IMG/VR virus record: IMGVR_UViG_3300047994_000277 | Span: 1-64,000 of that record | Source of the DNA: a virus | Taxonomy: Duplodnaviria > Heunggongvirae > Uroviricota > Caudoviricetes | Length of the DNA stretch: 64,000 bases | Strand: one strand, 5' to 3' | Shown: positions 14,213 through 32,915 of the stretch, piece after piece | How positions within the stretch are numbered: position 1 is the stretch's first letter | How the letters are laid out: every line of letters starts with the position of its first letter | The notes under the pieces: model-generated | The model's input: only the letters and a program-made list of their open reading frames with translations | Told to the model about the DNA's origin: nothing | Databases searched by the model: none | Position numbers and translations under genes: made by a program

Positions 14213-14220
14213 GTCCATCC

Positions 14221-14252
14221 GCCGGGGAGCCCTTCGGGGCTCCCCTTTTTTA
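14221..14252 (+). terminator. rho-independent terminator or attenuator
   Basis: Hairpin GGGGAGCCC-TTCG-GGGCTCCCC followed by TTTTTTT, between the substrate-binding gene and the permease gene. Confidence 0.75.
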
Positions 14253-14266
14253 TTGAAAGGCTTTTT

Positions 14267-15073
14267 ATGAAAGAGTTGTTTCAGTTACGAGGAGAATTAA
14301 ATAGGACCACGCAGTTGATCACTCAGATCTGCGGCATCGTTTTCCTGGTTGGTCTGTGGCAGACCGTATGCCAATTCTTTCATGTCCCTAAGGGTATTCT
14401 TCCCTCTCCGTTTGACGTCCTTAGCTCTTTCCAGGAGCTTTTCACTCAAGATAACTTGATCAGGAACCTGTCCTATTCACTCAAGATCAATCTCTACGGA
14501 TACGCCGAGGCAATTGGGGTTTGCATCCCGCTAGGATTCTTGTTGGGCCTTTTCCCACTATTTAGGGAAATGTTTTCGAAGCCTCTGGACTCCATTCGCT
14601 TCCTTCCTATTTCAGCCCTGACCGGCCTGTTCATTGCTTGGTTCGGCATCGAAGAGTCCATGAAGGTACAGTTTCTCGCATTCGGTATCGGCGTGTACCT
14701 CCTTCCTTTGGTTGTGCAGCGCGTCAATGAAGTAGAGCAGGTGTACTGCGACACCGTGTTCACCTTGGGCGCTTCTAAGTTGCAGACCATCCAAAAAGTT
14801 TTTCTTCCCGCAGTATTGGCCAAGGTGTCCGACGACATTCGGGTGATTACCGCAGTGTCTTGGACTTACATTATCATCGCCGAGCTTGTTAATCGAGCCG
14901 ACGGCGGCATTGGAAGCTTGGCTTACCTTTCCTCTCGCCAAAGCAGGCTCGATAAGGTGTTTGCCGTACTCCTGGTAATCATTGCGATCGGTTTTATCCA
15001 GGACAAGCTTGCGGTCCTTATCGACAAAATCTTCTTCCCTTATAAAGAAGTCGCAAAGAAAGCAGGCGCATAA
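14267..15073 (+). CDS. ABC transporter permease (SsuC/TauC/NitT family)
   Basis: Six predicted transmembrane segments. EAA-like loop GASKLQTIQKVFLPAVL. Typical N-terminal GILPSP. Confidence 0.8.
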   Translation: MKELFQLRGELNRTTQLITQICGIVFLVGLWQTVCQFFHVPKGILPSPFDVLSSFQELFTQDNLIRNLSYSLKINLYGYAEAIGVCIPLGFLLGLFPLFREMFSKPLDSIRFLPISALTGLFIAWFGIEESMKVQFLAFGIGVYLLPLVVQRVNEVEQVYCDTVFTLGASKLQTIQKVFLPAVLAKVSDDIRVITAVSWTYIIIAELVNRADGGIGSLAYLSSRQSRLDKVFAVLLVIIAIGFIQDKLAVLIDKIFFPYKEVAKKAGA

Positions 15074-15837
15074 TGGCTAACATTATAGAATTAAAAGATA
15101 TTTGCCAATCATATGGTTCTAAAGAAGTCATAAAAGGTCTCAATGTTGCCATCGAAGATAAGCCAAAGGGCGAGATCGTAGCCATTCTAGGTCCCTCTGG
15201 ATGCGGTAAATCGACTTTGCTCAGGTACGTCTCTGGTTTACAAGCTCCAACTGCCGGGGAAGTGATTCTTCACGGAGAGCCGCGATCTGAAGAGGATCGG
15301 GTCGGCATGGTATTCCAGAAGTATTCTTCTCTTCCATGGAGAACGGTCCTTGAGAACGTCGAGTTGGGGCTGGAGCTGAGCGGCGTTGATTCTAAGACCA
15401 GGCGCGAGCGCGCCCTGGCCATGTTGGAACTGGTCGAACTGAGTGATCATGCCAATAAATTTGCCCAGTACCCTACCCTTTCTGGAGGTCAGCTTCAGCG
15501 CGTGGCCATCGCACGCTCTTTGGTGGCTAACTCTAAGATTTTGCTGATGGATGAACCTTTTGGAGCCCTGGACATCAAGACCAGGCTTAAAATGCAGGAT
15601 ACGGTTCTTAACATCGGTAAGAAGCTTAGTCAGGAAATTACCGTTCTTTTCGTTACCCACGATATCTCAGAAGCCGTTTATCTGGCCGATGAGATCATTA
15701 TCATGGGCGGATCTCCTTCTAAAATAGTTGACAAGATTTCTATTCCATTCGGCGATAATAGGAGTCATAATCTGAAGGACAATGCGTGGTTTAAGTCCAC
15801 GGTGAGGGATATCGAAGAAAGAATGATGAGGGACTAA
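15073..15837 (+). CDS. ABC transporter ATP-binding protein
   Basis: Walker A GPSGCGKST. ABC signature LSGGQLQRVAIARSL. Walker B LLMDEPFGALD. TAATG overlap with the permease gene. Confidence 0.9.
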   Translation: MANIIELKDICQSYGSKEVIKGLNVAIEDKPKGEIVAILGPSGCGKSTLLRYVSGLQAPTAGEVILHGEPRSEEDRVGMVFQKYSSLPWRTVLENVELGLELSGVDSKTRRERALAMLELVELSDHANKFAQYPTLSGGQLQRVAIARSLVANSKILLMDEPFGALDIKTRLKMQDTVLNIGKKLSQEITVLFVTHDISEAVYLADEIIIMGGSPSKIVDKISIPFGDNRSHNLKDNAWFKSTVRDIEERMMRD

Positions 15838-16598
15838 TGAAAACAAAGCATGCCGAAAATTTTATCAGAGAGGCGTCTAAAAATTTTACAGACTACCGTA
15901 GCTTTGTCTCTCAGCTTGAAAAGTACGTCGTAGGTAACCTAGATCTTCAACATAAGCAAAACCCCATCGTTAGGCGACTTAAGGACCTAGGTGCCAAAGA
16001 TATCCTATTTGCCATCAAAGAGTATTCTCAGTTTTCCAATGAAGCGGTTCATATGCTTCTGGACGCGCGCGTGCGCACCCATGAGTGGAAGAAGCTGGCT
16101 CAGGAAATTGATCGCAATATCGAAGAGGAAAAGGGCAAGGAAACGCTCGGAGTGCCTCATCTTGAGATCATGCGTAAAGGCTATCGCCTGAGTTTTGATT
16201 TCGACGTGAACAATTACGAGCCCTCAGAAGTCACCAAGTCCTTCCTGCATTCGATGAGAAGAATCTTCAAAACCAAGGACAATGCCTTTCAATCCGGTGC
16301 CCTGTTGGCCTTTGAAAGCGTGTCCATCCCTGAGTTCTACGTCCTCGATTCGTTGGTCGAGAAATGTGAGAATCACCTCCATACGCTTAAGCGGAACGAG
16401 TACACGGCAGAGTACATCAAGGGGCATAAGTTCTTTGAGATTGGCCACAGAGAAGGTTTGCTGAATGCAATCGAAGAATACATCAAGGCTGATCAAGCTT
16501 CAGACTTTGCTACGGGTTATTTAGCCGTATGCGTTACTATGTCTAGTTGGTGGAACAACCTTAACGATTCTATAACATTTAACAGACATCAGGAATAG
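15837..16598 (+). CDS. all-alpha protein, possibly heme-oxygenase/TenA/PqqC-like fold (speculative)
   Basis: Co-transcribed with the ABC genes (TAATGA overlap). Helical with several E/H-containing segments. No definitive motif. Confidence 0.45.
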   Translation: MKTKHAENFIREASKNFTDYRSFVSQLEKYVVGNLDLQHKQNPIVRRLKDLGAKDILFAIKEYSQFSNEAVHMLLDARVRTHEWKKLAQEIDRNIEEEKGKETLGVPHLEIMRKGYRLSFDFDVNNYEPSEVTKSFLHSMRRIFKTKDNAFQSGALLAFESVSIPEFYVLDSLVEKCENHLHTLKRNEYTAEYIKGHKFFEIGHREGLLNAIEEYIKADQASDFATGYLAVCVTMSSWWNNLNDSITFNRHQE

Positions 16599-17080: not shown

Positions 17081-17620
17081 ATGTTTAAGCTCCCTAAAAA
17101 CCCTAAAATAGAAGAACTCACTAAATCCTACCGCGAACGCCGAATCAACCTTAGCGACCTTGATGCCGTAGTTGTAGATGGCGTTAAGCAATGCCGATGG
17201 TGCCTTACTCCGCTTACCGGTCGCAAGTACATGTGGTGCTCTTCTGATTGCCAAAACACTGCTTGGGCGTGGGCCAACCCTCAGAAAGAGGGCGGCCTGC
17301 ACATCCTTCTGGCTCGTCAGGACTTTAAGTGCAATCAATGTCAGTTCGACTACATGCCTTACGTGGAAGATTCCATTAAGTACATGAACCAGAAAAAGAA
17401 GACTATCGATCCTAACTCGATTAAGGAAAAAGTGAACGAGCGATTGATGAAGTTGCTCAAGTACAAAACTCCTTCCGATCGGCTCCCAGAAGTTGATCAC
17501 GTAGTGCCGATTTATAAGGGCGGCATGCCTTTAGGGTTTGACAACCACCAGGCCATTTGTTACTCTTGCCATAAGACCAAGACTAAGGTCGATTTGTCTG
17601 GTAAGAGGAATAAGAAATGA
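17081..17620 (+). CDS. HNH endonuclease
   Basis: EVDHVVPIYKGG...FDNHQAICYSCHKTK gives the HNH catalytic triad. Flanked by CxxC pairs. Confidence 0.8.
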   Translation: MFKLPKNPKIEELTKSYRERRINLSDLDAVVVDGVKQCRWCLTPLTGRKYMWCSSDCQNTAWAWANPQKEGGLHILLARQDFKCNQCQFDYMPYVEDSIKYMNQKKKTIDPNSIKEKVNERLMKLLKYKTPSDRLPEVDHVVPIYKGGMPLGFDNHQAICYSCHKTKTKVDLSGKRNKK

Positions 17621-17916
17621 AAGCATTGTTATTTTTAGGCATCGTGTGCGCAATCGTTACGATGTCGGGATGTGGTCAGAAGCTAGGCACGGTAGAGGTG
17701 GAGGGAAATCCAACACTTACAGTTACTGTTGATACCGATAAACTTACTACGTTTTTTGCACCTTATTGCCAGCAGCTCCTAGCCTCTCAGCTTGGCTACG
17801 CGCCTACGCCTCTGCAGGTGCAAAATTGCACCAATCAAATGATCTCTAATTTTCTGGCAACGATGCAAGGATCGCCTACGATTCCCATTACGCCTAGTCC
17901 GTCACCAACCCCATAA
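17617..17916 (+). CDS. small lipoprotein
   Basis: Signal peptide with lipobox MSGC. ATGA overlap with the HNH gene. Confidence 0.55.
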   Translation: MKALLFLGIVCAIVTMSGCGQKLGTVEVEGNPTLTVTVDTDKLTTFFAPYCQQLLASQLGYAPTPLQVQNCTNQMISNFLATMQGSPTIPITPSPSPTP

Positions 17917-17926
17917 GGAGAATAGT

Positions 17927-18481
17927 ATGTTTAAGAAACTTTTCGGTCGTAAGGAAGTTAAGCAAGCCCCTGTCGCTACGGCGGTTGAAGCATCTAAAGG
18001 CTATCACTCTTGCGTAGATACCTGTGAGAAGGACATCGATAATCTTGAGACAGAGTGTGAAAATCTCCGCAAGGATAATCTGATCCTGATTGGCAAAGTG
18101 ACCGCTCTCCAAACCCGCGAGAAAAAGCTTCAGGACGACGTAAGCGAGATGACTCAAGTTGCTAATGAAAACTTCGATAAAGTTAAAGAAAAAGACGAGC
18201 GCATTTCCGAACTTGAGCAGCGCCTTCAGGAAGCTGACGAAAAGGCTGACGGTACGCCAGTTAAGTATGCTTCTGCCCGTAAAACCCTTACTAAGGCTAA
18301 GCTGAAACAGCTTCGCGACCGCCTTGAAGCCGTTCCTTCAGGCGCTACAGGATTCGGTGGCTCCTGCTCCGTCTACGATAAGAAGACCAAGCGTCTCTCT
18401 GTCGTAGAGTTCAAATCCAAAGACGAGGCCCTCGCTTTGGTTGATCGTGCGGAGAAGGGTTATGTCGATATTGTCATGTGA
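17927..18481 (+). CDS. coiled-coil protein
   Basis: Charged heptad repeats. AGGAGAA Shine-Dalgarno upstream. Confidence 0.5.
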   Translation: MFKKLFGRKEVKQAPVATAVEASKGYHSCVDTCEKDIDNLETECENLRKDNLILIGKVTALQTREKKLQDDVSEMTQVANENFDKVKEKDERISELEQRLQEADEKADGTPVKYASARKTLTKAKLKQLRDRLEAVPSGATGFGGSCSVYDKKTKRLSVVEFKSKDEALALVDRAEKGYVDIVM

Positions 18482-20579
18482 TGAGTTCGTAGCTGATAGG
18501 AACAAAGTAACCCTAACTGTTCGCGACAACGCTCTAGTTATCGATTTAGCAGCAGCCCCTCGCTTGGAAGGTACTAGCGGATTTGTAATTAGCAATGGTT
18601 CAGGTGCGTCTAACAGCATAACCATCACTCCTGGCGGCAATTTGAATTTGGGAAATGGATACGTTGGCAGCGTTACTTCAAATACACTGTCGCAATACGG
18701 AACCGTTGGCTACAGGCTGTTCTTTCATCGTGGATTTCTTAAGTGCGTTAAGCGAGAAATTGCGTATTATCAAACACTTAACGTTGTAAGTACTTCGTCA
18801 ACCTATCATCTGCAAGATAGTAATTCTCCTAAGCAGAAAGCGCGAGAGACTTTTTATCATCCTGCTGTAATTTTGGAAGTGATGACAACCAAAGAGGCGA
18901 GAGAAACTCTAAAGAATCGATTAATTGAGTTTTCTCGTAAAAGGGGGATAGAAGTCCCACATGCGTTCAGAGACGTAGGTCCATTAACATTAGATAGATC
19001 GTTTGACGTCATGTCGGTTATTGATTGGCTTTCTTATCCTTTGCTAAGGGAAATCAATAATCCGTGCATGTGCTATAACACCGCACCCGTAGATAGGGAG
19101 ATCATGGCTCCGTCGTATGAGCCCATGAATTTCAAAGAGTTAGTGCAACACTATTTTGGAACCATTACTTCCAAAATGCTTGAAGAAATTTGGAAGGTTG
19201 TAGTTGTAGGCAACGATTATGCGGTTAGAAGATTTGATAGCGAAATGGCTCGCACCGCTTATATGGCTTATGGAAATACCAGATTTTTGAAGGATAATGG
19301 AGATCACGTAATCGAGGCGGGGAATAAAAAGTTTCAGGTAAATGTTTTTACTCTTGGTGTAGCGATCTTCAAGGCTTTGGGCTTTGACTACTTTTATCAA
19401 TGTATTAATAAATTTGCCACGGTTTCAGGATCACCTGGCTCGGCTGGAATGTTAACGCCCAATTATCAGCGTGCAGCTCAGCTGGAGATGGATTTTGCCA
19501 CTTTACTGAAAAGCATAACTCCTAAAAAGCTTATTGGCGCCCTGTTTGCTGAAGATGCACTGCCAGATACCCATAACTTGTACGATGCCTGTAGAATGAT
19601 TCGTGAATACGAACCAGCTCAGTCTATTCCAAAGAAACTAAAGACTCAGTATCCGAATGGGCTTAGGGTAGATTTTAAGTTTAAGACCATAAAAGAGTTG
19701 CACGACAAGATTTCCACCCAATACACGATCATCAAGACTGAATCCAATAATAGAGAAATCCCTATCTCTCCAGAGTACATGTGCCTGGATAGGCGTGAAA
19801 GAGACGGCCTGACCCTAGTGGTCCCAGATAACACCTCCACTCTGGCCATCTGGGGTAAGTTGCTCAACATTTGCATCGCGTCTTATGGTGATAGAGCAGC
19901 TAGAGGTGACACCCTTCTCCTTGGCGTGGAGAAAGAGGGTAAGATCAAGTACTGCCTTGAGTTCTATTCCTTACCGGTAGAAATCATTAGACCTATGGAA
20001 TCTATTGTGGCCGGCATTTTTGAGGAAGGAAAGGCCCCAGAAGATGCTTTGGTTGAGACGGTTAGGGTCGCCTACCCACGTTTAATCCAAAGGCATATGG
20101 GAGTAACTCCCTCAGATATCCCGGAAGAAGAGGAATATTTTTACGAGCTTAGCGAAGCACAGTTTAGGGGTGAGCGAAACGGTGATCCGACAAAAGAGGA
20201 TCGCGCAGCCGTATATTATCTTTTGAATCAGTGGGTCCAGGAAAACAAAGAAAGACTTGAGAAGATCAAAGGTATCTTTGAAGAGCGCGGTAACCAGTGG
20301 CACAATGGGGCTCAACTGAATGAGCAAATGCTGCAAGGAGTTTTACAGCAAGTTCAAAATCATTATGCGATCCCAGACCAGATTATGTTGAATCCTCAAG
20401 CATATCAAGCTTATCAAAACGTTTTCAATAACAACGTTGTTATGGATCCAGGTCCGCCGCCCATTTTCAATGGCCAGGTTAACATGGTCGTGAATCCTTA
20501 TATTCCTCCTGGCGAGGTTTGGGCAGTAGATGCGGACGGAGTCCGTTTCCAGCCGGTCATACAAAATGTTGTGGTCTAG
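18462..20579 (+). CDS. large hypothetical protein (about 705 aa)
   Basis: ATG at 18462 with a GAGAAGGG Shine-Dalgarno; the track gives a TTG at 18441. No recognised catalytic motif. Confidence 0.5.
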   Translation: MSILSCDEFVADRNKVTLTVRDNALVIDLAAAPRLEGTSGFVISNGSGASNSITITPGGNLNLGNGYVGSVTSNTLSQYGTVGYRLFFHRGFLKCVKREIAYYQTLNVVSTSSTYHLQDSNSPKQKARETFYHPAVILEVMTTKEARETLKNRLIEFSRKRGIEVPHAFRDVGPLTLDRSFDVMSVIDWLSYPLLREINNPCMCYNTAPVDREIMAPSYEPMNFKELVQHYFGTITSKMLEEIWKVVVVGNDYAVRRFDSEMARTAYMAYGNTRFLKDNGDHVIEAGNKKFQVNVFTLGVAIFKALGFDYFYQCINKFATVSGSPGSAGMLTPNYQRAAQLEMDFATLLKSITPKKLIGALFAEDALPDTHNLYDACRMIREYEPAQSIPKKLKTQYPNGLRVDFKFKTIKELHDKISTQYTIIKTESNNREIPISPEYMCLDRRERDGLTLVVPDNTSTLAIWGKLLNICIASYGDRAARGDTLLLGVEKEGKIKYCLEFYSLPVEIIRPMESIVAGIFEEGKAPEDALVETVRVAYPRLIQRHMGVTPSDIPEEEEYFYELSEAQFRGERNGDPTKEDRAAVYYLLNQWVQENKERLEKIKGIFEERGNQWHNGAQLNEQMLQGVLQQVQNHYAIPDQIMLNPQAYQAYQNVFNNNVVMDPGPPPIFNGQVNMVVNPYIPPGEVWAVDADGVRFQPVIQNVVV

Positions 20580-20626
20580 TTGACTAAGACGATTAGATGA
20601 TTTAACCTGATTATGGAGGAAATCCC

Positions 20627-20836
20627 ATGTACGAACTTAGAATGACTTCCAGAGGCAATAAGGTTTTGGTGTATGTTAAGCGCGAGCGCAGGTTTAACGA
20701 GCGTGGCATGTGGGTTGAAATCTGCCACGAGAACGACAAAGAAGCGCGTTTTTATACGGATTTTAACCGTCGCAATGGCCTTCAAGTAGAGAAGGATGAG
20801 CGAGGCTTCTACAGGGCTTTGGTTTTGAAAGATTAA
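20627..20836 (+). CDS. small hypothetical protein
   Basis: GGAGGA Shine-Dalgarno upstream. Confidence 0.45.
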   Translation: MYELRMTSRGNKVLVYVKRERRFNERGMWVEICHENDKEARFYTDFNRRNGLQVEKDERGFYRALVLKD

Positions 20837-20837
20837 T

Positions 20838-21212
20838 ATGAAATATGACAAGTTAGACACGGTTAGTGTTATTTCTGGTAAATACACTAGCCGGACAGGT
20901 CAAATCACAGGCGTGTCTCAGGTCCATAGGAATAACATTCCTGATATGGCCGAGTACGAAGTTGCGTTCAAAGACTTAAAGATCCGAGAGACCTTTAAAG
21001 AAAGCGACCTTGTGCTGGTGGAAAAGTACGATCCGGCAAAAGAAGAACGCGAGCGTCAAGAGACGGTTAAGAAAGCTAAAGAAGACGCGGACCGCCTTGC
21101 TGAGCAAAAGATGGAAGACGCTCTCAGGAAAAAAATTGAAAAAGAATTCCAAATTAGAGAAGAGCTAGAGGCTCAGTATGCTGCAAAGAAAACTCCCAAT
21201 AGTTCCCAATAA
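20838..21212 (+). CDS. hypothetical protein with charged helical tail
   Basis: ATG lies 1 nt after the upstream stop. Confidence 0.5.
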   Translation: MKYDKLDTVSVISGKYTSRTGQITGVSQVHRNNIPDMAEYEVAFKDLKIRETFKESDLVLVEKYDPAKEERERQETVKKAKEDADRLAEQKMEDALRKKIEKEFQIREELEAQYAAKKTPNSSQ

Positions 21213-21236
21213 CTCCCAAAATACGAAAGGCTGACC

Positions 21237-21677
21237 ATGATTAAATACGTTAAGGGAGATCTGTTTGAGACCAAGTGCAACATAATCGCCCACGGCTGCA
21301 ATTGTCGCGGCGGCTTTGGATCTGGTGTGGCTTATACGATGGCCATGAAATATCCTAAGGTCAGGGACATGTATCTGGAAAAGCACGAAGAGGAAGGTTG
21401 GAAGCTTGGAGACGTTCAGTTCGTAAGAGTACGAGATGGTCGAGTTATTGCTAATTGTGCTACTCAGTACAATTATCTCCCTCGCGGCGTGTGCCATGCT
21501 AGTTATGATGCTATTCGAAAAGCCATGCAGACCGTTAAAGAGTATGCGGTAAATAACGATTTGTCCGTTGCGATTCCTAAAATTGGCGCTGGACTCGCAG
21601 GCGGAGATTGGGATAAAATCGAAAGTATCCTCGAAGAAGTTTTCTCCGATTACTCCATCACGGTGTACGTCTTATGA
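21237..21677 (+). CDS. macro-domain protein (ADP-ribose binding/hydrolase)
   Basis: IIAHGCNCRGGFGSGVA aligns to the macro N-x(6)-GGG-V motif. IPKIGAGLAGGDW aligns to the second glycine-rich motif. Confidence 0.8.
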   Translation: MIKYVKGDLFETKCNIIAHGCNCRGGFGSGVAYTMAMKYPKVRDMYLEKHEEEGWKLGDVQFVRVRDGRVIANCATQYNYLPRGVCHASYDAIRKAMQTVKEYAVNNDLSVAIPKIGAGLAGGDWDKIESILEEVFSDYSITVYVL

Positions 21678-21850
21678 ATCATAAAATCTCATTTAATTCC
21701 GCCCAAGTACAGTATTTGATGGAAAAGCTAGGAGCTGATGATCCCCATGAGGCCGTCGAAACTTTTGCTAAAATTATTAGAGAGCTAAGTATTGATCCAC
21801 GTAAGATGCACGAATACCTTGAAGTCCTTATGAAGAACGACGGAGTTTAG
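21674..21850 (+). CDS. small hypothetical protein (58 aa, not in track)
   Basis: ATGA overlap with the macro gene. Ends 1 nt before the next ATG. Confidence 0.35.
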   Translation: MNHKISFNSAQVQYLMEKLGADDPHEAVETFAKIIRELSIDPRKMHEYLEVLMKNDGV

Positions 21851-21851
21851 C

Positions 21852-22592
21852 ATGCATATCGTCTCTAAGTTCCACGATTTTTACGATACCGCTTCGATCT
21901 ACGGCATCGATAAGACGTGTATATACCTTCGTTCGGAAGAAGAGTTCCCCGTAGAGGGCAGGCAATGGAGAGAGAAAACATCTCATATTAAGAATGGAAA
22001 GGGTCGTATTTCCGTTCCCGAAATGCCTGGCCAGGAAGACAAAGAGAACGCGGATTATAAGTTTAGCTTCCATAAGCTCATTTTGGGTTTTTGCGGTGAG
22101 CTGTATCCGGTAATCAAGGTGAAGCAAGAGTGCAAGGGTACTGGAATTGTCGAACAATTCTGTTTTTATGATCAGGCTTCCATTCAAGAGTTTTTGGAAG
22201 AAGAGGGAGTGCCGGCGTCCAAGTACGCCAATTACTCCTGGTATAGCACTAAGCATGCGGTAGACAGCGCCAAGGGCCTGGGTACCTTCTTTGACCCTAA
22301 CACCTGGACGCAGCTTGTAGATCTTTTTCATATCTATCGCGCACCTTGTTTTGTGATCAGCTGGAAGAAGCTTACAATTAATCCCTGCCTTAAGGATCTG
22401 TCCTTCATGAAGGTCTCGGATCCTCAGACGACCTTTCAAGAAATTTACATGTTCATGTCAGGCGTGCTGGGCGCTCCGCCGCCTCCTAAAGAGAAAATGT
22501 CTGATAAAGTTCTGGCCGCAGCTAAGGGTCACGACGGCGAATACTCGTTTAAAAAACCGCCAGGCAAGCGCGGCAAGAAACAATGGAGATGA
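21852..22592 (+). CDS. hypothetical protein (246 aa)
   Basis: ORF with a basic C-terminus. Confidence 0.5.
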   Translation: MHIVSKFHDFYDTASIYGIDKTCIYLRSEEEFPVEGRQWREKTSHIKNGKGRISVPEMPGQEDKENADYKFSFHKLILGFCGELYPVIKVKQECKGTGIVEQFCFYDQASIQEFLEEEGVPASKYANYSWYSTKHAVDSAKGLGTFFDPNTWTQLVDLFHIYRAPCFVISWKKLTINPCLKDLSFMKVSDPQTTFQEIYMFMSGVLGAPPPPKEKMSDKVLAAAKGHDGEYSFKKPPGKRGKKQWR

Positions 22593-22593
22593 T

Positions 22594-22875
22594 ATGAAAA
22601 AATATAATGAACTTACTGATGAACAGAAGAAGAAAATCGACGCTCTTGCCAAATCCCATATGCTCAAGAGTCTTCTCATTGGACTTAAATTTACCGCTCT
22701 GCTTTTGCTCACCAATGCAATCGTCATTCTTTTCGATATTTTTTATGTCCACAATCAAGCATTTGTAGTCCTGGGCGGGATAATGAATGCGATCAGTCTT
22801 TTTAGTGTTATGCACCGCGATAACGTAGCAGAACGTGATAGAGTAGAAGTAGAGCTTAAGAAGATTGTCGAGTGA
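22594..22875 (+). CDS. small two-TM membrane protein
   Basis: Two hydrophobic helices. Confidence 0.5.
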   Translation: MKKYNELTDEQKKKIDALAKSHMLKSLLIGLKFTALLLLTNAIVILFDIFYVHNQAFVVLGGIMNAISLFSVMHRDNVAERDRVEVELKKIVE

Positions 22876-22893
22876 TGAGTAGAAAGATCGCAT

Positions 22894-23856
22894 ATGAGTT
22901 TGATGACACCAAGGGCAACGTATGCCCCGTTCGAATACGACCAGGCTTACAAGTACTGGGAACTGCAGCAGCAATCGCATTGGTTACATACCGAAATTGC
23001 GATGGCAAGTGACATTAACGATTGGAAACTTAATTTAACCGATGGGGAACGTAACGTCATCGGCCAGATTTTGAAGGGCTTTACGCAATCAGAAGTCTTC
23101 ATCCAGGAATACTGGAGTCAAATGGTTGCCAAGTGGTTCAAGAAACCTGAAATCCAAATGATGGCGGCCTCGTTTGCTTCCATGGAGTCTATTCATGCGG
23201 TCGCTTACGCTTATCTTAATCAGTCTCTTGGCCTTGAAGATTTTTCTGCGTTTCTCCACGAGCCTACCGCAAAGGCGAAAATTGATCGCCTCATTGAGAC
23301 TAAAGGTAAGTCGCGCGAGGAGATCGCGCGCTCTCTGGCCATTTTCTCTGGTTTCAATGAGGGAGTTAACCTTTTTAGCTCATTTGCTGTTCTACTGAAC
23401 TTTAGTCGGTTTAACAAGATGAAGGGACTTGGGCAGATCATTGCCTTCTCGATCAAAGATGAATCCCTGCACTCCGAGGCTGGATGTTGGCTGTTTCGTA
23501 CTTTGGTCGGCGAATACCCAGAGATCTTTAACGATGAATTGAAGAAAAGCGTGTACGACGCAGCACGTACAACCATTGAGTTAGAAGACTCTTTCATCGA
23601 CAAAGCTTTTGAACTTGGTCCGATCGAGGGATTGGATCCTAAGGACTTGAAGGCGTTTATTCGCCATCGCGCAAATACCAAACTGAATGACCTTGGCTTG
23701 AAGCAGAATTGGAAAAACGTAGATAAGGATGCGCTCAAGCGAATGGATTGGTTCGACGTACTTTCGAGCGGCGTAAGCCATGCGGACTTTTTTGCACAAC
23801 GTGTTACAGATTATTCAAAAGGCACTTTAGATTTTAGCGGAGTATGGGATGCCTAA
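22894..23856 (+). CDS. nrdB: ribonucleotide reductase class I small subunit
   Basis: Di-iron ligand motifs MESIHAVAY (ExxH plus radical Tyr at +4) and DESLHSE. Confidence 0.9.
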   Translation: MSLMTPRATYAPFEYDQAYKYWELQQQSHWLHTEIAMASDINDWKLNLTDGERNVIGQILKGFTQSEVFIQEYWSQMVAKWFKKPEIQMMAASFASMESIHAVAYAYLNQSLGLEDFSAFLHEPTAKAKIDRLIETKGKSREEIARSLAIFSGFNEGVNLFSSFAVLLNFSRFNKMKGLGQIIAFSIKDESLHSEAGCWLFRTLVGEYPEIFNDELKKSVYDAARTTIELEDSFIDKAFELGPIEGLDPKDLKAFIRHRANTKLNDLGLKQNWKNVDKDALKRMDWFDVLSSGVSHADFFAQRVTDYSKGTLDFSGVWDA

Positions 23857-24025
23857 GAAAAAGAAAATAGAAGAAACGTCAACGGCCATTGGTAGCGCTA
23901 CTAAGGAAGATTTGGAAAACGAGATAGACTGGGATAACGCTCCAGGCCCGTTTAGCCATTGGTTGGAAGACTTAGAGGATAACGATCGCCCTTTGGGCGC
24001 TCCTATCCACGATTTGGATGATTAA
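23849..24025 (+). CDS. small acidic protein (58 aa) bridging nrdB and nrdA
   Basis: ATGCCTAA overlap with the nrdB stop. Its stop overlaps the nrdA start. Confidence 0.3.
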   Translation: MPKKKKIEETSTAIGSATKEDLENEIDWDNAPGPFSHWLEDLEDNDRPLGAPIHDLDD

Positions 24026-25715
24026 TATGAAACTTGATGAGTTGAAGGCTGCCGGTGAAGCGCCTGAGTGGATGAACGACGAGGGTTTGAAAACCTTGAT
24101 GGGCGGGTACATGCTGCCTGGGGAAACTCCTCGCGCCATGTACCGTCGTGTGGCTAAGGCCGCAGGCGGTTATTATAATGGAAAATACGAAGAAGAGTTT
24201 TTTGAGGCGATGTGGAAGAATTGGCTGTGCCCTGCCTCTCCTGTTTTGTCAAATATGGGTACCACTCGTGGCTTGCCTATTTCTTGTAACAGCATTCATG
24301 TCGGCGATTCTGTGGACAGTATTTTTGGTAAGTCTCATGAACTCGCCATGCTTTCTAAAAATGGTGCTGGTGTTGGTATATATGTGGGCGATGTGCGTGG
24401 ACGCAATGCTGTTATTTCTGGGAATGGGCGTTCTGAAGGCATCATACCCTGGTGTAAAGTCTACGATTCGACAATTATTTCAGTAAGCCAAGGAAATACG
24501 CGTAGAGGCGCAGGCGCAGTCTATGCAGGCGTCAGACACGCCGATATCGATGAGTTCATTAATATGAGGCGTGCTACAGGCGATGCTAATCGCCGTTGCA
24601 TGAACCTGAACCATGGGCTCTGCATCGATGATGAGTGGATGAAGGACGCACGGGCCGGAGATAAGGCTAAGCGACAACTTTGGCAGGAGATCCTTAAGGC
24701 CCGCGTAGAGACTGGCGAACCTTATCTGTTTTTTTCGGACAACGTAAATCGTCAAAATCCAGAATGCTACACTAAGAATGGTCTTCGTGTCAGCACTTCC
24801 AACATCTGCACTGAGATCATGCTCTTTACGGATGAGAAACATAGTTTCGTATGCTGTCTTTCTTCTTTGAACCTCGTCAAGTGGAACGAATGGAAGAAGA
24901 CCAATCTGGTGCGCCTGGCAGTTAAATTCTTGGACGCGGTGATCGAGGAATATCTCATGAAGTCTGCCGGCATTCCGGGCTTTGAGCCTAGCCGTGCCGC
25001 CGCCATGAAGGGTCGCGCCATCGGAATCGGCGTTTTGGGTTGGCATACGCTTCTGCAGATGAACCAGATTCCCTTTGATAGCTTTGAAGCTATGATGCTT
25101 AACTCTCAAATCTTCCAAAGATTGAAGAAAGAGGCTGAGATCGAGTCCGCTTCCTTAGCGGCTGAGCTTGGCGAGCCAGAGTGGTGCAAAGGATTTGGTC
25201 GTCGTAACACTCATTTGATTGCCGTTGCGCCTACCGTATCAAATTCTACGATTTCTGGTGGTCATTCAGCTGGAATTGAGCCTCTGGCGGCCAATATTTT
25301 CTCTCAAAAGTCTGCAAAGGGAACTTTTATTAGAAAAAATAGAGTTTTTGAAGAGCTTTTAGAGCGAAAAGGCAAGAATTCTCCTGAAATTTGGAAACAG
25401 ATCAACGAACAAAGCGGTTCCGTGCAGACTTTGGACTGTCTTTCTGATGAAGAGAAGGAAGTTTTTCTCACTGCGCGCGAAATCAATCAGCATGCGATCA
25501 TCAAGCAGGCCGCGCAGCGCCAGAAATGGATCGATCAGGGTCAGTCCGTCAACCTTTTCTTCGCCGCCAACGCTTCTCCAAAGTACATACACGAGGTTCA
25601 CTGGTCTGCTTGGGAAAGTGGGCTCAAGTCGCTCTATTATCTGCGTACTGAAGGCGTCCTGAGGGGCGATATGGCCTCTCGTTCCAAGGAAGAGTGCGCG
25701 GCCTGCGAAGCTTAG
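24018..25715 (+). CDS. nrdA: ribonucleotide reductase class I large subunit (no ATP-cone)
   Basis: Active-site SNICTEI (N-x-C-x-E). C-terminal redox pair CAAC. Alternative start at 24027. Confidence 0.9.
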   Translation: MINMKLDELKAAGEAPEWMNDEGLKTLMGGYMLPGETPRAMYRRVAKAAGGYYNGKYEEEFFEAMWKNWLCPASPVLSNMGTTRGLPISCNSIHVGDSVDSIFGKSHELAMLSKNGAGVGIYVGDVRGRNAVISGNGRSEGIIPWCKVYDSTIISVSQGNTRRGAGAVYAGVRHADIDEFINMRRATGDANRRCMNLNHGLCIDDEWMKDARAGDKAKRQLWQEILKARVETGEPYLFFSDNVNRQNPECYTKNGLRVSTSNICTEIMLFTDEKHSFVCCLSSLNLVKWNEWKKTNLVRLAVKFLDAVIEEYLMKSAGIPGFEPSRAAAMKGRAIGIGVLGWHTLLQMNQIPFDSFEAMMLNSQIFQRLKKEAEIESASLAAELGEPEWCKGFGRRNTHLIAVAPTVSNSTISGGHSAGIEPLAANIFSQKSAKGTFIRKNRVFEELLERKGKNSPEIWKQINEQSGSVQTLDCLSDEEKEVFLTAREINQHAIIKQAAQRQKWIDQGQSVNLFFAANASPKYIHEVHWSAWESGLKSLYYLRTEGVLRGDMASRSKEECAACEA

Positions 25716-26284: not shown

Positions 26285-26983
26285 ATGAGCCGTATTATTT
26301 TGACCGATATCCATGGGTGTTACAAGACCATGCTGGCGCTTATCGATAAGCTCCCACCTGGCATTCCTTTGACCTTTGCCGGCGACTTGATTGATCGTGG
26401 CCCCGACTCCAAGTCGGTGGTCGAATACGTCAAGGCAAATAAGCACGACTGCGTTCTTGGAAACCATGAAGTTATGATGGTTCAGGAACTGGAATTTGAT
26501 CCAGACGGAGCTTACATTCGCCCAAGCTACATGAACGGTATCTGGCTTATGAACGGTGGCGACAAGTGTTTGGACAGCTATCAAAATGATAATGGGGATA
26601 TGGACGATATCACGCTGAGGAGACACCAGCGCTTAATGAAAACATTGCCATATTATCTGGAATATCCAGAACTTAAGAACGATAAGGGTCAGCATCTTTT
26701 GGTCACCCATACGACTGCGGCGCACGTTTGGAATGACGAGGAAGTGTCTAAGGATAGCCCTCGTTTTCAAGATTTCGTGACTTGGGAGCGCGACCCATTT
26801 CCTGCTAAAATTGAAGGAATTTACAACGTTTACGGCCATACTCCTCAACAATACAAAGCTACGGTAAAAGAGCACTTCGCCTGCATCGATACAGGTGGTT
26901 ATTTTAAAAGGGAAAATTACGGTAAACTCACTGCTCTCCAATTTCCCGAAATGATCGTATACGAGCAAAAAAACATAGAGTGA
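26285..26983 (+). CDS. PPP-family Ser/Thr protein phosphatase (lambda-phosphatase/ApaH-like)
   Basis: DIHG, GDLIDRG and GNHE metallophosphatase motifs. Confidence 0.85.
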   Translation: MSRIILTDIHGCYKTMLALIDKLPPGIPLTFAGDLIDRGPDSKSVVEYVKANKHDCVLGNHEVMMVQELEFDPDGAYIRPSYMNGIWLMNGGDKCLDSYQNDNGDMDDITLRRHQRLMKTLPYYLEYPELKNDKGQHLLVTHTTAAHVWNDEEVSKDSPRFQDFVTWERDPFPAKIEGIYNVYGHTPQQYKATVKEHFACIDTGGYFKRENYGKLTALQFPEMIVYEQKNIE

Positions 26984-27186
26984 AAAAAGTAGATAAAAAA
27001 GCACTAAAACGCTCAATTTGGTCTTCTCTTTCGAGAGTGATCGGTATAGGATTGAGTGCAGGTGCTGGCAGTATGATCCATCGCATGGTTGGTGATGGAC
27101 TCGAAGGCTGGTCAATAGCCTCTGTAATGGCAATAGCCAGTTTTCTGCTTATGTGCTTCGCCGAGTATGAAAGGGAAAAAGAATGA
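26980..27186 (+). CDS. small membrane protein
   Basis: Two hydrophobic segments. ATGA overlaps on both sides. Confidence 0.4.
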   Translation: MKKVDKKALKRSIWSSLSRVIGIGLSAGAGSMIHRMVGDGLEGWSIASVMAIASFLLMCFAEYEREKE

Positions 27187-27404
27187 AAAGAAGCGAAATG
27201 TTACAAATCCTTAATGATGCTGTCATTGAAGCTGGTATTTCTCAAAAGATTTACAATAGCAAAGAATCATTGGAACATGTTCTACAGAAGCTCGAAGAAG
27301 CTGGGATGAAACCTCCCGTGACCAAGAATTGCCCTGTTCTTTTGACCACCCAACATACCTGGGAGCCTGAAAATGAACAAAATTCTAGAATTCAAGTTCG
27401 GTAG
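27183..27404 (+). CDS. small hypothetical protein
   Basis: ATGA overlap upstream. Confidence 0.4.
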   Translation: MKRSEMLQILNDAVIEAGISQKIYNSKESLEHVLQKLEEAGMKPPVTKNCPVLLTTQHTWEPENEQNSRIQVR

Positions 27405-28383
27405 CCATCTTTACGGAACTAACACGCCTAGCTCTGATTTGGACTTTAAGGGCATCTACCTGCCGACTGCACAAGAAATTGTGCTAGGTCGCGTGAAGGG
27501 TACCATCCAAAAATCGCGTCCGAAAGCTGATTGCGAGCGCAATACCAAGGATGACGTGGATTCCGAATACTTCACGCTTTGTAGGTATCTTGAGCTTTTG
27601 ACTGAAGGTCAGACGGTAGCTTTGGACGTTCTGTTCGCTAATACCCTCACTTTCTATACGGTCCAAGGCACTGAGATTATGGCTCGGATCTATGAGAACC
27701 GTGAACGCCTTATCACGCGTAACGTGAATGCCTTCGTGGGTTACGCCCGCCAGCAGGCTGCTAAGTACGGCATCAAGGGATCCAGAATGGACGCACTTAA
27801 GCGCACCATGGAAATGTTGGACTCGCTAAAAGTGACTCCCGGATATCAGGATACTTTGGACTATTATACGTTTCCGATTGAGCAGCTGGTTCAGGAGACT
27901 AAAGAGCTTGTTTCCCTTGAAAAGACCGCCCTGATTGAGGTGGTTATGCTTAAAGGACCTAAAGGTGCTTTTGATGCTCCACACCTTCGTGTAAATGGTC
28001 GATCTATCCCATTTCATGCCAAAGTGAAGTACGCGAAGGAAGTGGTCGGTAAAATGCTCGACGGATACGGTCAGAGAGCCCATAAGGCTCATTTGGCCGG
28101 TGGAGTTGACTGGAAGGCCCTAAGCCATGCTGTTAGGGTCAATAGCGAGGCTATGGAGCTTCTTAAGACCAGCGTGATTACCTTCCCTAGGCCCGATAAG
28201 GAACTTTTGCTCAAGATCAAGAAGGGCGAGTTGCCATACGAGCAAGTAGCTGAATTGATTGAGCAAGGACTTGCCGATCTTTACGTGGCCCACGAGACGT
28301 CAACTTTACCTGACAAACCCGATCAGAAATTTGTTGACGACCTTCTCTACGAAGTGTATTCTGAAATTGTGAAAGGGGCATAA
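27373..28383 (+). CDS. pol-beta superfamily nucleotidyltransferase
   Basis: FGSHLYGTNTPSSDLDFKG matches GS-x(10)-DxD. Helical C-terminal domain. Confidence 0.65.
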   Translation: MNKILEFKFGSHLYGTNTPSSDLDFKGIYLPTAQEIVLGRVKGTIQKSRPKADCERNTKDDVDSEYFTLCRYLELLTEGQTVALDVLFANTLTFYTVQGTEIMARIYENRERLITRNVNAFVGYARQQAAKYGIKGSRMDALKRTMEMLDSLKVTPGYQDTLDYYTFPIEQLVQETKELVSLEKTALIEVVMLKGPKGAFDAPHLRVNGRSIPFHAKVKYAKEVVGKMLDGYGQRAHKAHLAGGVDWKALSHAVRVNSEAMELLKTSVITFPRPDKELLLKIKKGELPYEQVAELIEQGLADLYVAHETSTLPDKPDQKFVDDLLYEVYSEIVKGA

Positions 28384-28384
28384 C

Positions 28385-29338
28385 ATGCCTAAACTTACCG
28401 TGTTGGTTGGGCCTCCCGGCTCAGGAAAATCTACGCTTGCTAAGAAAATTATCGATCATACTCCCGACGACATTGATCGGCCTCAACCTGTTTATATCAA
28501 TCAGGATTCTCAAGGTCGCGATGGTCATATGGCTCTTTTTCAGGAGGCACTCGCTAATGGCAAAGATATTATTGTGGATCGCATGGGTTTCGACCGCAAC
28601 CAGCGTAATCGCTATATTTTTCCGGCCTCAGGACGCGGTTATGATACTAGAATCATCGTTCTGCATCAGCCTTATCGGGTATGTTTGGAGCGAGCACTTG
28701 CTCGAACAGAGCATGAAACGATTAAGGATGAAAAAGCAGCGCGATCCGCGCTGAGCACTTTTTTCTCTAAGTACGAGCGTCCTGAGCAGGGCGAGGCTGG
28801 TGAGATTGAATTTCGCTATCCTGAGGGCGATAAGCCTTCTGCGATCATTTGCGACCTCGACGGCACCCTTTGCAATGTGGACCATAGGCTTCATACGGTT
28901 CGCCCTCCTAAAGAATGGGCGGAAGAAATCGCACTGGCAAAGAGTGAAAAACGCCCTAACGTTCATGGTTGGAAGGCTAATTGGCCTGCTTTCTTTGATG
29001 GGATTCCAGGCGATGGCGTGAATCAGTGGTGCCAGGACATTCTCTTTTCCATGCAAGAGAAGGGTCATAAGATCGTTTTCTGCTCTGGGCGTCCTGATAA
29101 CCATAAACGTGCTACCAAGGACTGGCTGTGTAACAAAACCGGTTATTACAATCCTATCCTGTTTATGCGCCCGCGCGGAGACTCTAGGGACGATAGCATC
29201 GTTAAGGAAATTATCCTCGACTTTGAAATCTTGACAAGATTTACCCCCTATTTTATGATCGATGATAGGAAGCGTGTTTTCGAGATGTGGCGTAAACGCG
29301 GCTTCACTTGTTTGGCTTGTGCGAATGGAGATTTTTAA
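28385..29338 (+). CDS. polynucleotide 5'-kinase/3'-phosphatase (T4 Pnkp-like)
   Basis: N-terminal P-loop GPPGSGKST. C-terminal HAD motif ICDLDGTL. Same kinase-then-phosphatase order as T4 Pnkp. Confidence 0.8.
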   Translation: MPKLTVLVGPPGSGKSTLAKKIIDHTPDDIDRPQPVYINQDSQGRDGHMALFQEALANGKDIIVDRMGFDRNQRNRYIFPASGRGYDTRIIVLHQPYRVCLERALARTEHETIKDEKAARSALSTFFSKYERPEQGEAGEIEFRYPEGDKPSAIICDLDGTLCNVDHRLHTVRPPKEWAEEIALAKSEKRPNVHGWKANWPAFFDGIPGDGVNQWCQDILFSMQEKGHKIVFCSGRPDNHKRATKDWLCNKTGYYNPILFMRPRGDSRDDSIVKEIILDFEILTRFTPYFMIDDRKRVFEMWRKRGFTCLACANGDF

Positions 29339-29339
29339 T

Positions 29340-32740: not shown

Positions 32741-32915
32741 GAACGTGAGAAGATTTAAGGCAATTATAGAATTTTTTGCAGTAGTAGCTTGCTTTGCAAT
32801 TGCTGGGTTTTTCTTGGGCGATGTCAAAGACAGCCCCAGGCTTTTCACTACCATTCTTGATTTTTTAGCATTTTGTACATTTTTCTTACTAGGCTTATCG
32901 TTTCTGTGAGGTTCC

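What the first reader, a model, noticed from the sequence alone, without database searches (positions are those of the whole stretch)
20627..21850. Phage macro-domain protein flanked by tiny ORFs, a candidate counter to ADP-ribosylation-based defence
21237-21677 encodes a stand-alone macro domain with both glycine-rich ADP-ribose-binding motifs intact. Bacterial immunity and toxin systems use ADP-ribosylation of DNA, RNA or proteins: DarT (whose antitoxin DarG has a macro domain), Tre/ART toxins, and NAD-derived signalling. A phage macro domain is a plausible eraser of such marks or of signalling nucleotides. It is embedded among small uncharacterised ORFs (20627, 20838, 21674), as is typical of anti-defence loci.
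Basis: partly seen in the sequence, partly recalled or inferred. Interest (0 to 1): 0.6.

Follow-up and report, generated by a model that had tools for sequence, protein, structure and literature searches.

The report
Phage anti-DarT macrodomain (AdfM-like)
This uncultured large phage carries a small ADP-ribose-removing enzyme from a very common phage family whose T4 member was recently shown to defeat the bacterial DarTG2 defence, so the gene is real and probably a counter-defence, but it is an ordinary new member of a known kind.

Summary
Window 21237-21677 (+) encodes a 146-aa stand-alone macrodomain: Pfam PF01661 above its cutoff, PHROG 335 at E 5e-50, an AF2 model at pLDDT 93.5, and TM 0.89 to BT1257. 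Both glycine-rich loops are intact.

It belongs to the ALC1-like/TARG1/DarG class, in the glutamine-type subclass defined by Streptomyces SCO6735. N22 and Q77 are invariant in 120 homologues. The TARG1 Lys84/Asp125 dyad and DarG Lys80 are absent, and that is normal for this subclass.

SCO6735 cleaves DarT-made thymidine-ADP-ribose on DNA. T4 Tk.4 has the same Gln type, shares 33% identity with the window protein, and was shown genetically in 2025 to protect T4 from DarTG2 (named AdfM). PhiKZ gp104, a Lys-type AdfM, was shown biochemically in 2026. Homologues occur in 2,635 cultured-phage records.

The "anti-defence island" argument is weak. The small ORFs o69, o58, o246 and o93 are conserved by synteny within one clade of about 165-kb uncultured phages and do not follow the macrodomain elsewhere. 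Only the stretch upstream of the macrodomain is variable; o124 has two relatives worldwide.

No ADP-ribosyltransferase, KptA or NAD enzyme was found nearby.

Verdict: new member of a known kind, low to moderate interest.

The parts
21237..21677 (+). 146-aa stand-alone macrodomain of the ALC1-like class, Gln-type (SCO6735-like) active site. Key residues are H19, N22, Q77, loop 1 at 25-32 (GGFGSGVA) and loop 2 at 116-123 (IGAGLAGG). It is an AdfM-like predicted DNA ADP-ribosyl glycohydrolase.
   Evidence: Family membership. Invariant residues. Alignment to SCO6735, T4 Tk.4, DarG and TARG1. AF2 model at pLDDT 93.5. Foldseek. NCBIfam best hit is the macro part of DarG.
21674..21850 (+). o58, a 58-aa mildly acidic (pI 5.5) protein of unknown function. 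Its start overlaps the macro stop codon (ATGA), and it lies immediately downstream of the macrodomain in every close relative.
   Evidence: 33-63% identity in L002/3, L005, L020-23. Searches show a 60-66-aa gene in the same position. No family hit.
20627..20836 (+). o69, a 69-aa basic (pI 9.5) protein of unknown function with a GGAGG ribosome-binding site. It is conserved in the clade, but at a variable distance upstream of the macrodomain.
   Evidence: 50-70% identity; 0 to 2.7 kb upstream of the macrodomain in relatives.
20838..21212 (+). o124, a 124-aa rare accessory gene. It has a weak KOW-like N-terminus followed by a highly charged helical tail, and it sits in the variable slot between the PcfJ-like gene and the macrodomain.
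   Evidence: KOW E 0.039, below cutoff. (no relative in 22 loci). (two relatives in 5.8e9 proteins). (both lie directly after o69 in L028/L029).
21852..22592 (+). o246, a 246-aa conserved protein of unknown function (PHROG 4243). It always follows macro-o58 in this clade. It is not an ART or NAD-enzyme fold and shows only weak ATP-grasp-like similarity.
22594..22875 (+). o93, a 93-aa conserved small protein, last of the fixed macro-o58-o246-o93 run before the ribonucleotide reductase genes.

Best explanation
The gene at 21237-21677 encodes an AdfM-type counter-defence enzyme: a stand-alone macrodomain ADP-ribosyl glycohydrolase of the glutamine-type (SCO6735/BT1257/T4 Tk.4) branch of the ALC1-like class.

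Proposed mechanism. On infection, host DarT2-type toxins ADP-ribosylate thymidines in single-stranded phage DNA and stall replication. The phage enzyme binds the ADP-ribose through its two glycine-rich loops. Q77, held in place by N22, positions the distal ribose. A water-mediated, backbone-assisted reaction then cleaves the thymine-ribose bond, releasing free ADP-ribose and intact DNA.

Shown here: domain identity, fold, subclass and strict conservation of the residues that are essential in SCO6735.

Inferred by homology: substrate (dT-ADPr DNA), catalysis and the anti-DarTG2 role.

Unlike DarG, the protein has no DarT-binding C-terminal domain, so it would act by erasing the mark rather than by sequestering the toxin. 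SCO6735 is reported to inhibit DarT by interaction as well, so that mode is not excluded.

The flanking small ORFs are co-transcribed neighbours of unknown function. Nothing ties them functionally to the macrodomain.
For: Domain and fold:
- Pfam Macro 28.5 bits against a cutoff of 22; PHROG 335 at E 4.7e-50.
- AF2 pLDDT 93.5 and pTM 0.88.
- Foldseek top hits are BT1257 (TM 0.89), DarG 5M3E (0.85), TARG1 (0.80), SCO6735 (0.84) and Poa1p.

Subclass:
- The MAFFT alignment puts window Q77 on SCO6735 Q85, the T4 Tk.4 Gln and the BT1257 Gln, where DarG, PhiKZ gp104 and TARG1 have Lys.
- N22 aligns with SCO6735 N27 and DarG N22.
- N22, Q77, H19, G28, G30, G117 and G123 are invariant in 120 homologues of 60-76% identity.
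- All 10 distant viral homologues aligned also carry Gln.
- The loop after Q77 is 12 residues long, close to the 13-14 of SCO6735 and BT1257 and longer than the 8 of TARG1.

Function of characterised relatives:
- SCO6735 removes DarT-made dT-ADPr from DNA and rescues E. coli and S. coelicolor from DarT. Q85A is dead and N27S nearly dead (PMC9411070).
- T4 tk.4 was the only significant hit in a transposon screen on DarTG2, and its clean knockout sensitises T4.
- The window protein against T4 Tk.4 gives 33% identity at E 2e-19 over the full length.
- PhiKZ gp104 (AdfM) removes DarT2 ADP-ribose from DNA in vitro (PMC13309987).
- NCBIfam's best model is antitoxin_DarG, macro part only.

The phage makes ordinary thymidylate (ThyX at 32916-33746), so its DNA should contain the DarT2 target base.
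Against: - No biochemical or genetic data exist for this protein or its clade.
- Identity to both characterised Gln-type members is only 30-33%, so substrate specificity could differ.
- SCO6735 also de-ADP-ribosylates proteins.
- SCO6735 Val25, proposed to hold the catalytic water through its backbone, corresponds to Gly20 here and in T4. SCO6735 Lys89 in the mobile loop, important for DNA substrates, has no exact counterpart; R83 lies nearby.
- The host is unknown, so it is unknown whether it carries DarTG2.
- The T4 result is a preprint and shows genetics only, not enzymology.
- The neighbourhood is nucleotide metabolism and RNA repair, which gives no independent support for a defence-related role.
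Confidence: 0.6

Rival explanations
1. Protein de-ADP-ribosylase. The enzyme removes Glu/Asp-linked mono-ADP-ribose from proteins, either reversing host ART toxins acting on phage or host proteins, or tuning the phage's own ADP-ribosyltransferases as T4 has in Alt, ModA and ModB.
For: TARG1 (E 6.6e-13, TM 0.80) and SCO6735 both hydrolyse protein-linked ADP-ribose. The family is abundant in T4-like phages, which encode ARTs (that T4 encodes Alt/ModA/ModB is from my own knowledge).
Against: The TARG1 Lys84/Asp125 dyad used for protein substrates is absent; Q77 and A121 stand in its place. No ART domain was found in about 45 window ORFs scanned with Pfam. The conserved neighbour o246 has no ART fold. 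Only 64 kb of a genome probably near 165 kb was visible.
Confidence: 0.13
2. Small-molecule ADP-ribose metabolite processing. The enzyme is an ADP-ribose-1''-phosphate phosphatase or O-acyl-ADP-ribose deacylase (Poa1p/OARD1-like). It would clean up by-products of NAD-dependent RNA repair or of sirtuins, or degrade ADPr-derived toxins or signals.
For: - Yeast Poa1p is a strong sequence hit (E 1e-16).
- PHROG 335 and many GenBank records call the family 'phosphatase', and JGI calls this very protein 'O-acetyl-ADP-ribose deacetylase'.
- An RNA-repair cluster (RlaP, PNKP, RNA ligase, YAcAr SLOG) lies 5.7 kb downstream and is syntenic in relatives.
- The jumbo-phage review proposes exactly these roles for phage Macro domains (PMC7824862).
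Against: - No KptA/Tpt1 or 2H phosphoesterase, which would generate the substrate, was found in the window.
- Poa1p has Ser where this family has the invariant Gln, from the HMMER alignment of T4 Tk.4 to Poa1p. Poa1p S30 corresponds to G26 by eye.
- The database names are transferred annotations, not tests.
- In T4 the homologue sits away from the RNA-repair genes yet has a defence phenotype.
Confidence: 0.15
3. Non-catalytic ADP-ribose reader or sponge. The protein binds and sequesters ADPr-derived immune signals such as Thoeris His-ADPR or gcADPR, or binds ADP-ribosylated targets without hydrolysis.
For: Macrodomains are used as signal receptors in type II Thoeris ThsA. The binding loops are intact.
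Against: Residues needed for catalysis, not only binding, are strictly invariant: N22 and Q77, the counterparts of residues whose mutation kills SCO6735. The closest structures are all hydrolases. Known phage sponges (Tad1, Tad2) have other folds (my own knowledge).
Confidence: 0.04
4. The whole 20627-21850 stretch is a multi-gene anti-defence island, in which o69, o124 and o58 are themselves inhibitors of host immunity.
For: The segment between the PcfJ-like gene and the macrodomain is variable among close relatives: Band_7 present or absent, different 63-97-aa ORFs, and o124 in only 3 genomes. The small proteins have no known family.
Against: - o58, o246 and o93 are fixed in all relatives and continue directly into the RNR genes.
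- None of the small ORFs travels with the macrodomain in 14 distant loci.
- There is no promoter or terminator excess marking a separate module.
- Small unknown ORFs are the norm throughout large phage genomes (my own knowledge).
Confidence: 0.08

Closest known systems
T4 Tk.4 = AdfM (anti-DarT factor Macrodomain), bioRxiv 10.1101/2025.11.20.689424
   Same: Phage-encoded, stand-alone protein of about 150 aa in the same PHROG family. It shares 33% identity over the full length (E 2e-19), the same AHGCNC motif with Asn, and the same Gln in place of the DarG/TARG1 Lys. Like the window gene, it lies among small unknown ORFs in an early or nucleotide-metabolism region.
   Different: The loop after the Gln is shorter in T4 (8 residues against 12). 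The flanking genes are unrelated (vs, tk.3). T4 has a genetic phenotype, whereas this protein has no data.
Streptomyces coelicolor SCO6735 (PDB 5E3B) and Bacteroides BT1257 (PDB 2FG1)
   Same: They are the best sequence and structure matches (E 1e-16 to 1e-20, TM 0.84-0.89) and share the Gln-type active site, with Q85/N27 corresponding to Q77/N22. They also have a long mobile loop. SCO6735 cleaves dT-ADPr on DNA and neutralises DarT.
   Different: They are bacterial chromosomal genes, and SCO6735 has a DNA-damage-inducible promoter. SCO6735 Val25 corresponds to Gly here, and Lys89 is not conserved. The window protein is slightly shorter.
DarG antitoxin macrodomain (Thermus aquaticus 5M3E, M. 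tuberculosis 5M3I) and chimallivirus AdfM (PhiKZ gp104, PMC13309987)
   Same: Same fold (TM 0.85-0.86) and same conserved Asn. The predicted reaction is the same, removal of ADP-ribose from thymidine in ssDNA, and PhiKZ AdfM has the same counter-defence logic.
   Different: These are Lys-type enzymes (K80 and K78). They share only 20-24% identity with the window protein, form a separate branch in the NJ tree, and differ in the second loop (GNGGL against GLAGG). DarG has a C-terminal DarT-binding domain and an adjacent darT gene, and PhiKZ AdfM is imported into the phage nucleus.
Human TARG1/OARD1 and yeast Poa1p
   Same: Same ALC1-like macrodomain class, about 30% identity, with an IxYVKGDL N-terminus and an ITVY C-terminus.
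   Different: The TARG1 catalytic dyad K84/D125 is replaced by Q77/A121. Poa1p has Ser at the Gln position. Their known substrates are protein Glu-ADPr, O-acyl-ADPr and ADPr-1''-phosphate.

Membership tests
Macro domain (Pfam PF01661) | Profile score at or above the curated gathering cutoff | tested here: met
   28.5 bits against a cutoff of 22, covering 19-131 of the protein and 2-117 of 118 profile positions.
Macro domain (Pfam PF01661) | Three-layer alpha/beta/alpha macro fold | tested here: met
   AF2 pLDDT 93.5. There are 244 PDB matches at E<=1e-3, and the top 20 are all macrodomains with TM 0.77-0.89.
Macro domain (Pfam PF01661) | Two glycine-rich ADP-ribose/phosphate-binding loops | tested here: met
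   GGFGSGVA at 25-32 and IGAGLAGG at 116-123. G28, G30, G117 and G123 are invariant in 120 homologues.
SCO6735/BT1257 subclass of ALC1-like macrodomains | Gln at the position of TARG1 K84 / DarG K80 (SCO6735 Gln85, essential) | tested here: met
   Q77 aligns with SCO6735 Q85 and is invariant in the family.
SCO6735/BT1257 subclass of ALC1-like macrodomains | Asn that locks the Gln rotamer (SCO6735 Asn27) | tested here: met
   N22 aligns with it and is invariant.
SCO6735/BT1257 subclass of ALC1-like macrodomains | Mobile loop longer than in TARG1 and carrying basic residues (SCO6735 Lys89); Val or Ile at position 25 | tested here: inconclusive
   The loop is 12 residues, against 13-14 in SCO6735 and BT1257 and 8 in TARG1. 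It contains the nearly invariant R83 but no residue aligned to K89. Position 25 is Gly20, as in T4 Tk.4.
SCO6735/BT1257 subclass of ALC1-like macrodomains | Hydrolysis of thymidine-linked ADP-ribose on ssDNA | not testable with these tools
   Needs an in vitro assay on a DarT2-modified oligonucleotide.
AdfM, T4 Tk.4 type | Phage-encoded stand-alone macrodomain homologous to T4 Tk.4 | tested here: met
   BLASTP gives 33% identity at E 2e-19 over 149 residues. tblastn hits T4 tk.4 among 2,635 phage records. The window protein matches PHROG 335; T4 Tk.4 itself was not scanned against PHROGs.
AdfM, T4 Tk.4 type | Required for phage growth on a DarTG2 host | not testable with these tools
   Only a genetic test can show it.
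AdfM, PhiKZ gp104 / DarG2-like type | Catalytic Lys (K78 / K80) and close similarity to DarG2 macro | tested here: not met
   Q77 aligns with K78. Identity is 22% to gp104 and 20-24% to DarG, and the protein sits on a separate NJ branch.
DarG antitoxin (NCBIfam NF048014) | Full-length match including the C-terminal DarT-binding domain | tested here: not met
   55.5 bits against a cutoff of 250. Only model positions 1-145 of 338 are matched, and the protein ends at residue 146.
DarG antitoxin (NCBIfam NF048014) | Adjacent darT toxin gene | tested here: not met
   None of the ORFs from 18441 to 25715 scanned with Pfam gave a DarT hit. The neighbours are a PcfJ-like gene, unknown small ORFs and RNR.
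TARG1/OARD1 | Catalytic Lys84/Asp125 dyad | tested here: not met
   Q77 and A121 occupy these columns.
Poa1p ADP-ribose-1''-phosphate phosphatase | Poa1p active-site residues (H23, S30, F152 were the positions mutated in PDB 6LFS, 6LFT, 6LFU) | tested here: inconclusive
   H19 matches H23. S30 corresponds to G26 by eye in the alignment. Poa1p has Ser at the invariant Gln position. The central region aligns poorly.

The most novel reading that the evidence does not exclude
The invariant macro-o58 pair, with overlapping stop and start codons and o58 immediately downstream in every clade member, could be a split two-part anti-DarT module. In this reading the small acidic o58 plays the toxin-binding role of DarG's C-terminal domain while the macrodomain erases the mark. 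Alternatively, the true substrate of this long-loop Gln-type clade could be something not yet described for phage macrodomains, such as ADP-ribosylated RNA or an ADPr-derived immune signal.
Probability: 0.08. Interest if true: 0.55.

Novelty: new member of a known kind. Interest (0 to 1): 0.27.

Why it matters
If the inference holds, this protein extends the recently defined AdfM counter-defence to a clade of about 165-kb uncultured environmental phages. It also shows that the glutamine-type (SCO6735-like) active site, not the DarG-like lysine type, is the common form among phage macrodomains: all 10 distant viral homologues aligned here, plus T4, carry Gln. That has practical use for annotation, because thousands of phage genes now labelled 'phosphatase' or 'O-acetyl-ADP-ribose deacetylase' are probably DNA ADP-ribosyl glycohydrolases. 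It may also help in predicting phage sensitivity to DarTG2. It does not open a new mechanism or question.

Tried and rejected
- Megablast of window 19000-24000 against 50,697 phage records gave no match, so no cultured close relative exists.
- Exact-sequence contig look-up of the window macrodomain and of its identical database entry P0001 failed. Relatives were used instead.
- A promoter and terminator scan of 17500-24200 found fewer promoter-like and about as many terminator-like sites as shuffled sequence, so no module boundaries could be drawn.
- I looked for partner enzymes of the RNA-repair/ADPr-1''-P route (KptA, 2H) and of NAD salvage, Nudix, Sir2 and ART in about 45 window ORFs. None was found.
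- I asked whether any neighbour travels with the macrodomain outside the clade. None of the five neighbouring ORFs (o69, o124, o58, o246, o93) or the PcfJ-like gene was found in 14 distant viral loci. o246 relatives in cultured phages sit in tRNA or Thg1/DUF4326 contexts without a macrodomain.
- The small ORFs were compared with the T4 tk.3-tk.1 region and with all + strand ORFs of relatives at E<=1. There was no cross-family similarity.
- Rfam found nothing in or near the region.
Full report
**Observation**

- o69 at 20627-20836, preceded by a GGAGG ribosome-binding site.
- o124 at 20838-21212.
- The 146-aa macrodomain gene at 21237-21677.
- o58 at 21674-21850, whose ATG overlaps the macro stop codon (ATGA).

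They continue without gaps into o246 (21852-22592), o93 (22594-22875) and the ribonucleotide reductase small and large subunit genes (22894-23856 and 24018-25715). A 712-aa PcfJ-like gene lies upstream (18441-20579). A promoter and terminator scan shows no excess over shuffled sequence, so this is one long co-directional block. Rfam finds nothing in it.

**Identity of the 146-aa protein**

- It passes the Pfam Macro gathering cutoff (28.5 against 22 bits) and matches PHROG 335 at E 4.7e-50.
- Sequence search of the PDB returns BT1257 (1.7e-20), yeast Poa1p (1e-16), SCO6735 (1.2e-16), TARG1/OARD1 (6.6e-13) and the DarG macrodomains (1.2e-7).
- An AlphaFold2 model built on 120 homologues is confident (pLDDT 93.5, pTM 0.88).
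- Foldseek gives the same set of structures: 2FG1 TM 0.89, DarG 5M3E 0.85, SCO6735 0.84, TARG1 0.80 and Poa1p about 0.8.

This places it in the ALC1-like class of macrodomains. Both glycine-rich loops are intact and conserved.

**Catalytic residues**

I aligned the window protein with T4 Tk.4, PhiKZ gp104, BT1257, SCO6735, two DarG macrodomains, TARG1 and ten distant viral homologues.
- Window Q77 sits in the column of SCO6735 Gln85, the BT1257 Gln and the T4 Tk.4 Gln. DarG (K80), PhiKZ gp104 (K78) and TARG1 (K84) have lysine there.
- TARG1 Asp125 corresponds to Ala121.
- Window N22 matches SCO6735 Asn27 and DarG Asn22.

The classical TARG1 dyad is therefore missing. The SCO6735 paper shows this is the defining and active configuration of a distinct subclass: Q85A abolishes and N27S nearly abolishes activity, and the enzyme efficiently removes DarT-made thymidine-ADP-ribose from DNA and rescues cells from DarT (PMC9411070).

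N22 and Q77 are invariant in the 120 close homologues, and every distant viral homologue examined also has Gln. The loop after Q77 is 12 residues, close to SCO6735 and BT1257 (13-14) and longer than TARG1 and T4 Tk.4 (8). Two SCO6735 features are not reproduced: Val25 is Gly20 here, and Lys89 has no aligned counterpart, although R83 is nearby and nearly invariant.

An unbootstrapped NJ tree groups the window clade with the Gln-type proteins, apart from the Lys-type DarG, PhiKZ and TARG1 group.

**What is already known about the family**

tblastn finds homologues in 2,635 of 50,697 cultured-phage records, all below 60% identity. They include T4 tk.4 and many records annotated 'phosphatase', 'O-acetyl-ADP-ribose deacetylase' or 'macro domain protein'.
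- A 2025 preprint reports that tk.4 was the single significant hit when a T4 transposon library was grown on a DarTG2 host. A clean knockout sensitises T4, and the gene was renamed adfM.
- A 2026 Cell Reports paper independently named the PhiKZ gp104 macrodomain AdfM. It showed in vitro removal of DarT2-installed ADP-ribose from DNA and multi-log loss of titre of mutants on DarTG2 hosts.
- The window protein is 33% identical to T4 Tk.4 (E 2e-19) and only 22% identical to gp104.
- NCBIfam's best model is the DarG antitoxin, but only its macro portion is matched, at 55.5 bits against a cutoff of 250. The protein lacks DarG's DarT-binding domain.

**Neighbourhood**

The exact protein is known from a single 85.8-kb metagenomic contig. 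Relatives of 60-76% identity lie on contigs of 164-177 kb.

In the relatives whose loci I fetched (L002/3, L005, L020-23, L028/29), the order macro, 60-aa gene, about 240-aa gene, about 93-aa gene is constant and RNR genes follow. o58, o246 and o93 are recognisably homologous, except that o93 was not detected in L020.

The upstream side varies. A Band_7 gene and different 63-97-aa ORFs come and go, and o69 sits from 0 to 2.7 kb away. o124 has only two relatives among 5.8 billion proteins, both directly after o69 in L028 and L029.

In 14 more distant viral loci (macro 28-41% identical) none of the neighbours is present. The small ORFs are therefore real genes, but their association with the macrodomain is clade-level synteny rather than a mobile cassette. 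Only the upstream stretch behaves like an accessory-gene slot.

**Testing rival contexts**

Pfam scans of about 45 window ORFs found no ART, KptA/Tpt1, 2H, Nudix, Sir2 or NAD-salvage gene.

An RNA-repair cluster (RlaP, PNKP, RNA ligase, YAcAr SLOG; 27373-30916) lies 5.7 kb downstream. This keeps alive the older proposal that phage Macro domains process ADPr-1''-phosphate or other soluble ADPr derivatives (PMC7824862). However, the enzymes that would generate that substrate are missing, and Poa1p differs at the invariant Gln position.

**Conclusion**

The finding is a correctly recognised macrodomain, and the proposed role is plausible and now backed by literature. The most likely function is AdfM-type removal of DarT2-installed ADP-ribose from thymidine in phage DNA, using the glutamine-type SCO6735 mechanism (confidence about 0.6).

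The protein is a new, divergent member of a very common and recently characterised phage family. The island argument from the flanking small ORFs is not supported beyond a variable slot upstream. Interest is low to moderate.

Noticed in passing
window 7884-8004 (+): Rfam finds a tRNA (46.1 bits, full model 1-71) that spans 121 nt because of an insertion of about 50 nt at the variable-loop position. The anticodon loop UAGAUUA reads GAU (Ile). ARAGORN reported no tRNA in the window. It could be an interrupted, intron-like or unusually long-armed phage tRNA.
   Followed up: partly
window 12686-16598 (+): The phage encodes a complete ABC importer: a 508-aa substrate-binding protein (NMT1/THI5-like, phosphonate-binding-like) fused to a C-terminal OmpA domain, a permease, an ATPase, and then a DUF3865 haem-oxygenase-like protein. 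The same block lies directly upstream of o69-macro in relative L002/L003. This is an unusual auxiliary metabolic module.
   Followed up: no
window 26285-30916 and 34017-34457 (+): An RNA-repair cluster: metallophosphatase, RlaP nucleotidyltransferase, PNKP (kinase plus HAD phosphatase), RNA ligase with an OB domain and a YAcAr SLOG protein, plus a separate HAD_SAK_2 'Swiss Army Knife RNA repair' domain protein. It is syntenic in relatives.
   Followed up: partly
[not shown]
   Followed up: partly
window 18441-20579 (+): A 712-aa protein with a central PcfJ-like domain (28.1 bits against a cutoff of 25) and a weak C-terminal resemblance to the SU10 major capsid protein (E 0.0015, below cutoff). 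It is conserved (36-43% identity) as the upstream anchor of the variable slot in relatives.
   Followed up: no
L003 (NCBI GCA_026552835.1, JAPMTY010000007.1, 83 kb): A related contig deposited as a 'Candidatus Methanoperedens sp.' MAG carries the same phage block (PcfJ, OmpA-fusion ABC importer, macro, RNR, RlaP). The bacterial-type OmpA gene suggests a phage contig mis-binned into an archaeal MAG.
   Followed up: no
window 39221-59561 (+): A tail and baseplate module that includes a 2,187-aa protein with a Baseplate_J domain near its N-terminus (50666-57229) and several large proteins without any Pfam or PHROG match.
   Followed up: no
window 8909-9697 versus L021, L022, L023, L028: An SPFH/Band_7 gene occupies the slot between PcfJ and the macrodomain in several relatives (459-622 aa). 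In the window the only Band_7 gene found (262 aa) lies 11 kb upstream, so this gene appears to move or be replaced within the clade.
   Followed up: no
window 32255-33746 (+): The phage encodes a peptide deformylase and a ThyX thymidylate synthase. ThyX implies ordinary thymidine in the DNA, which is relevant to DarT2 targeting.
   Followed up: no
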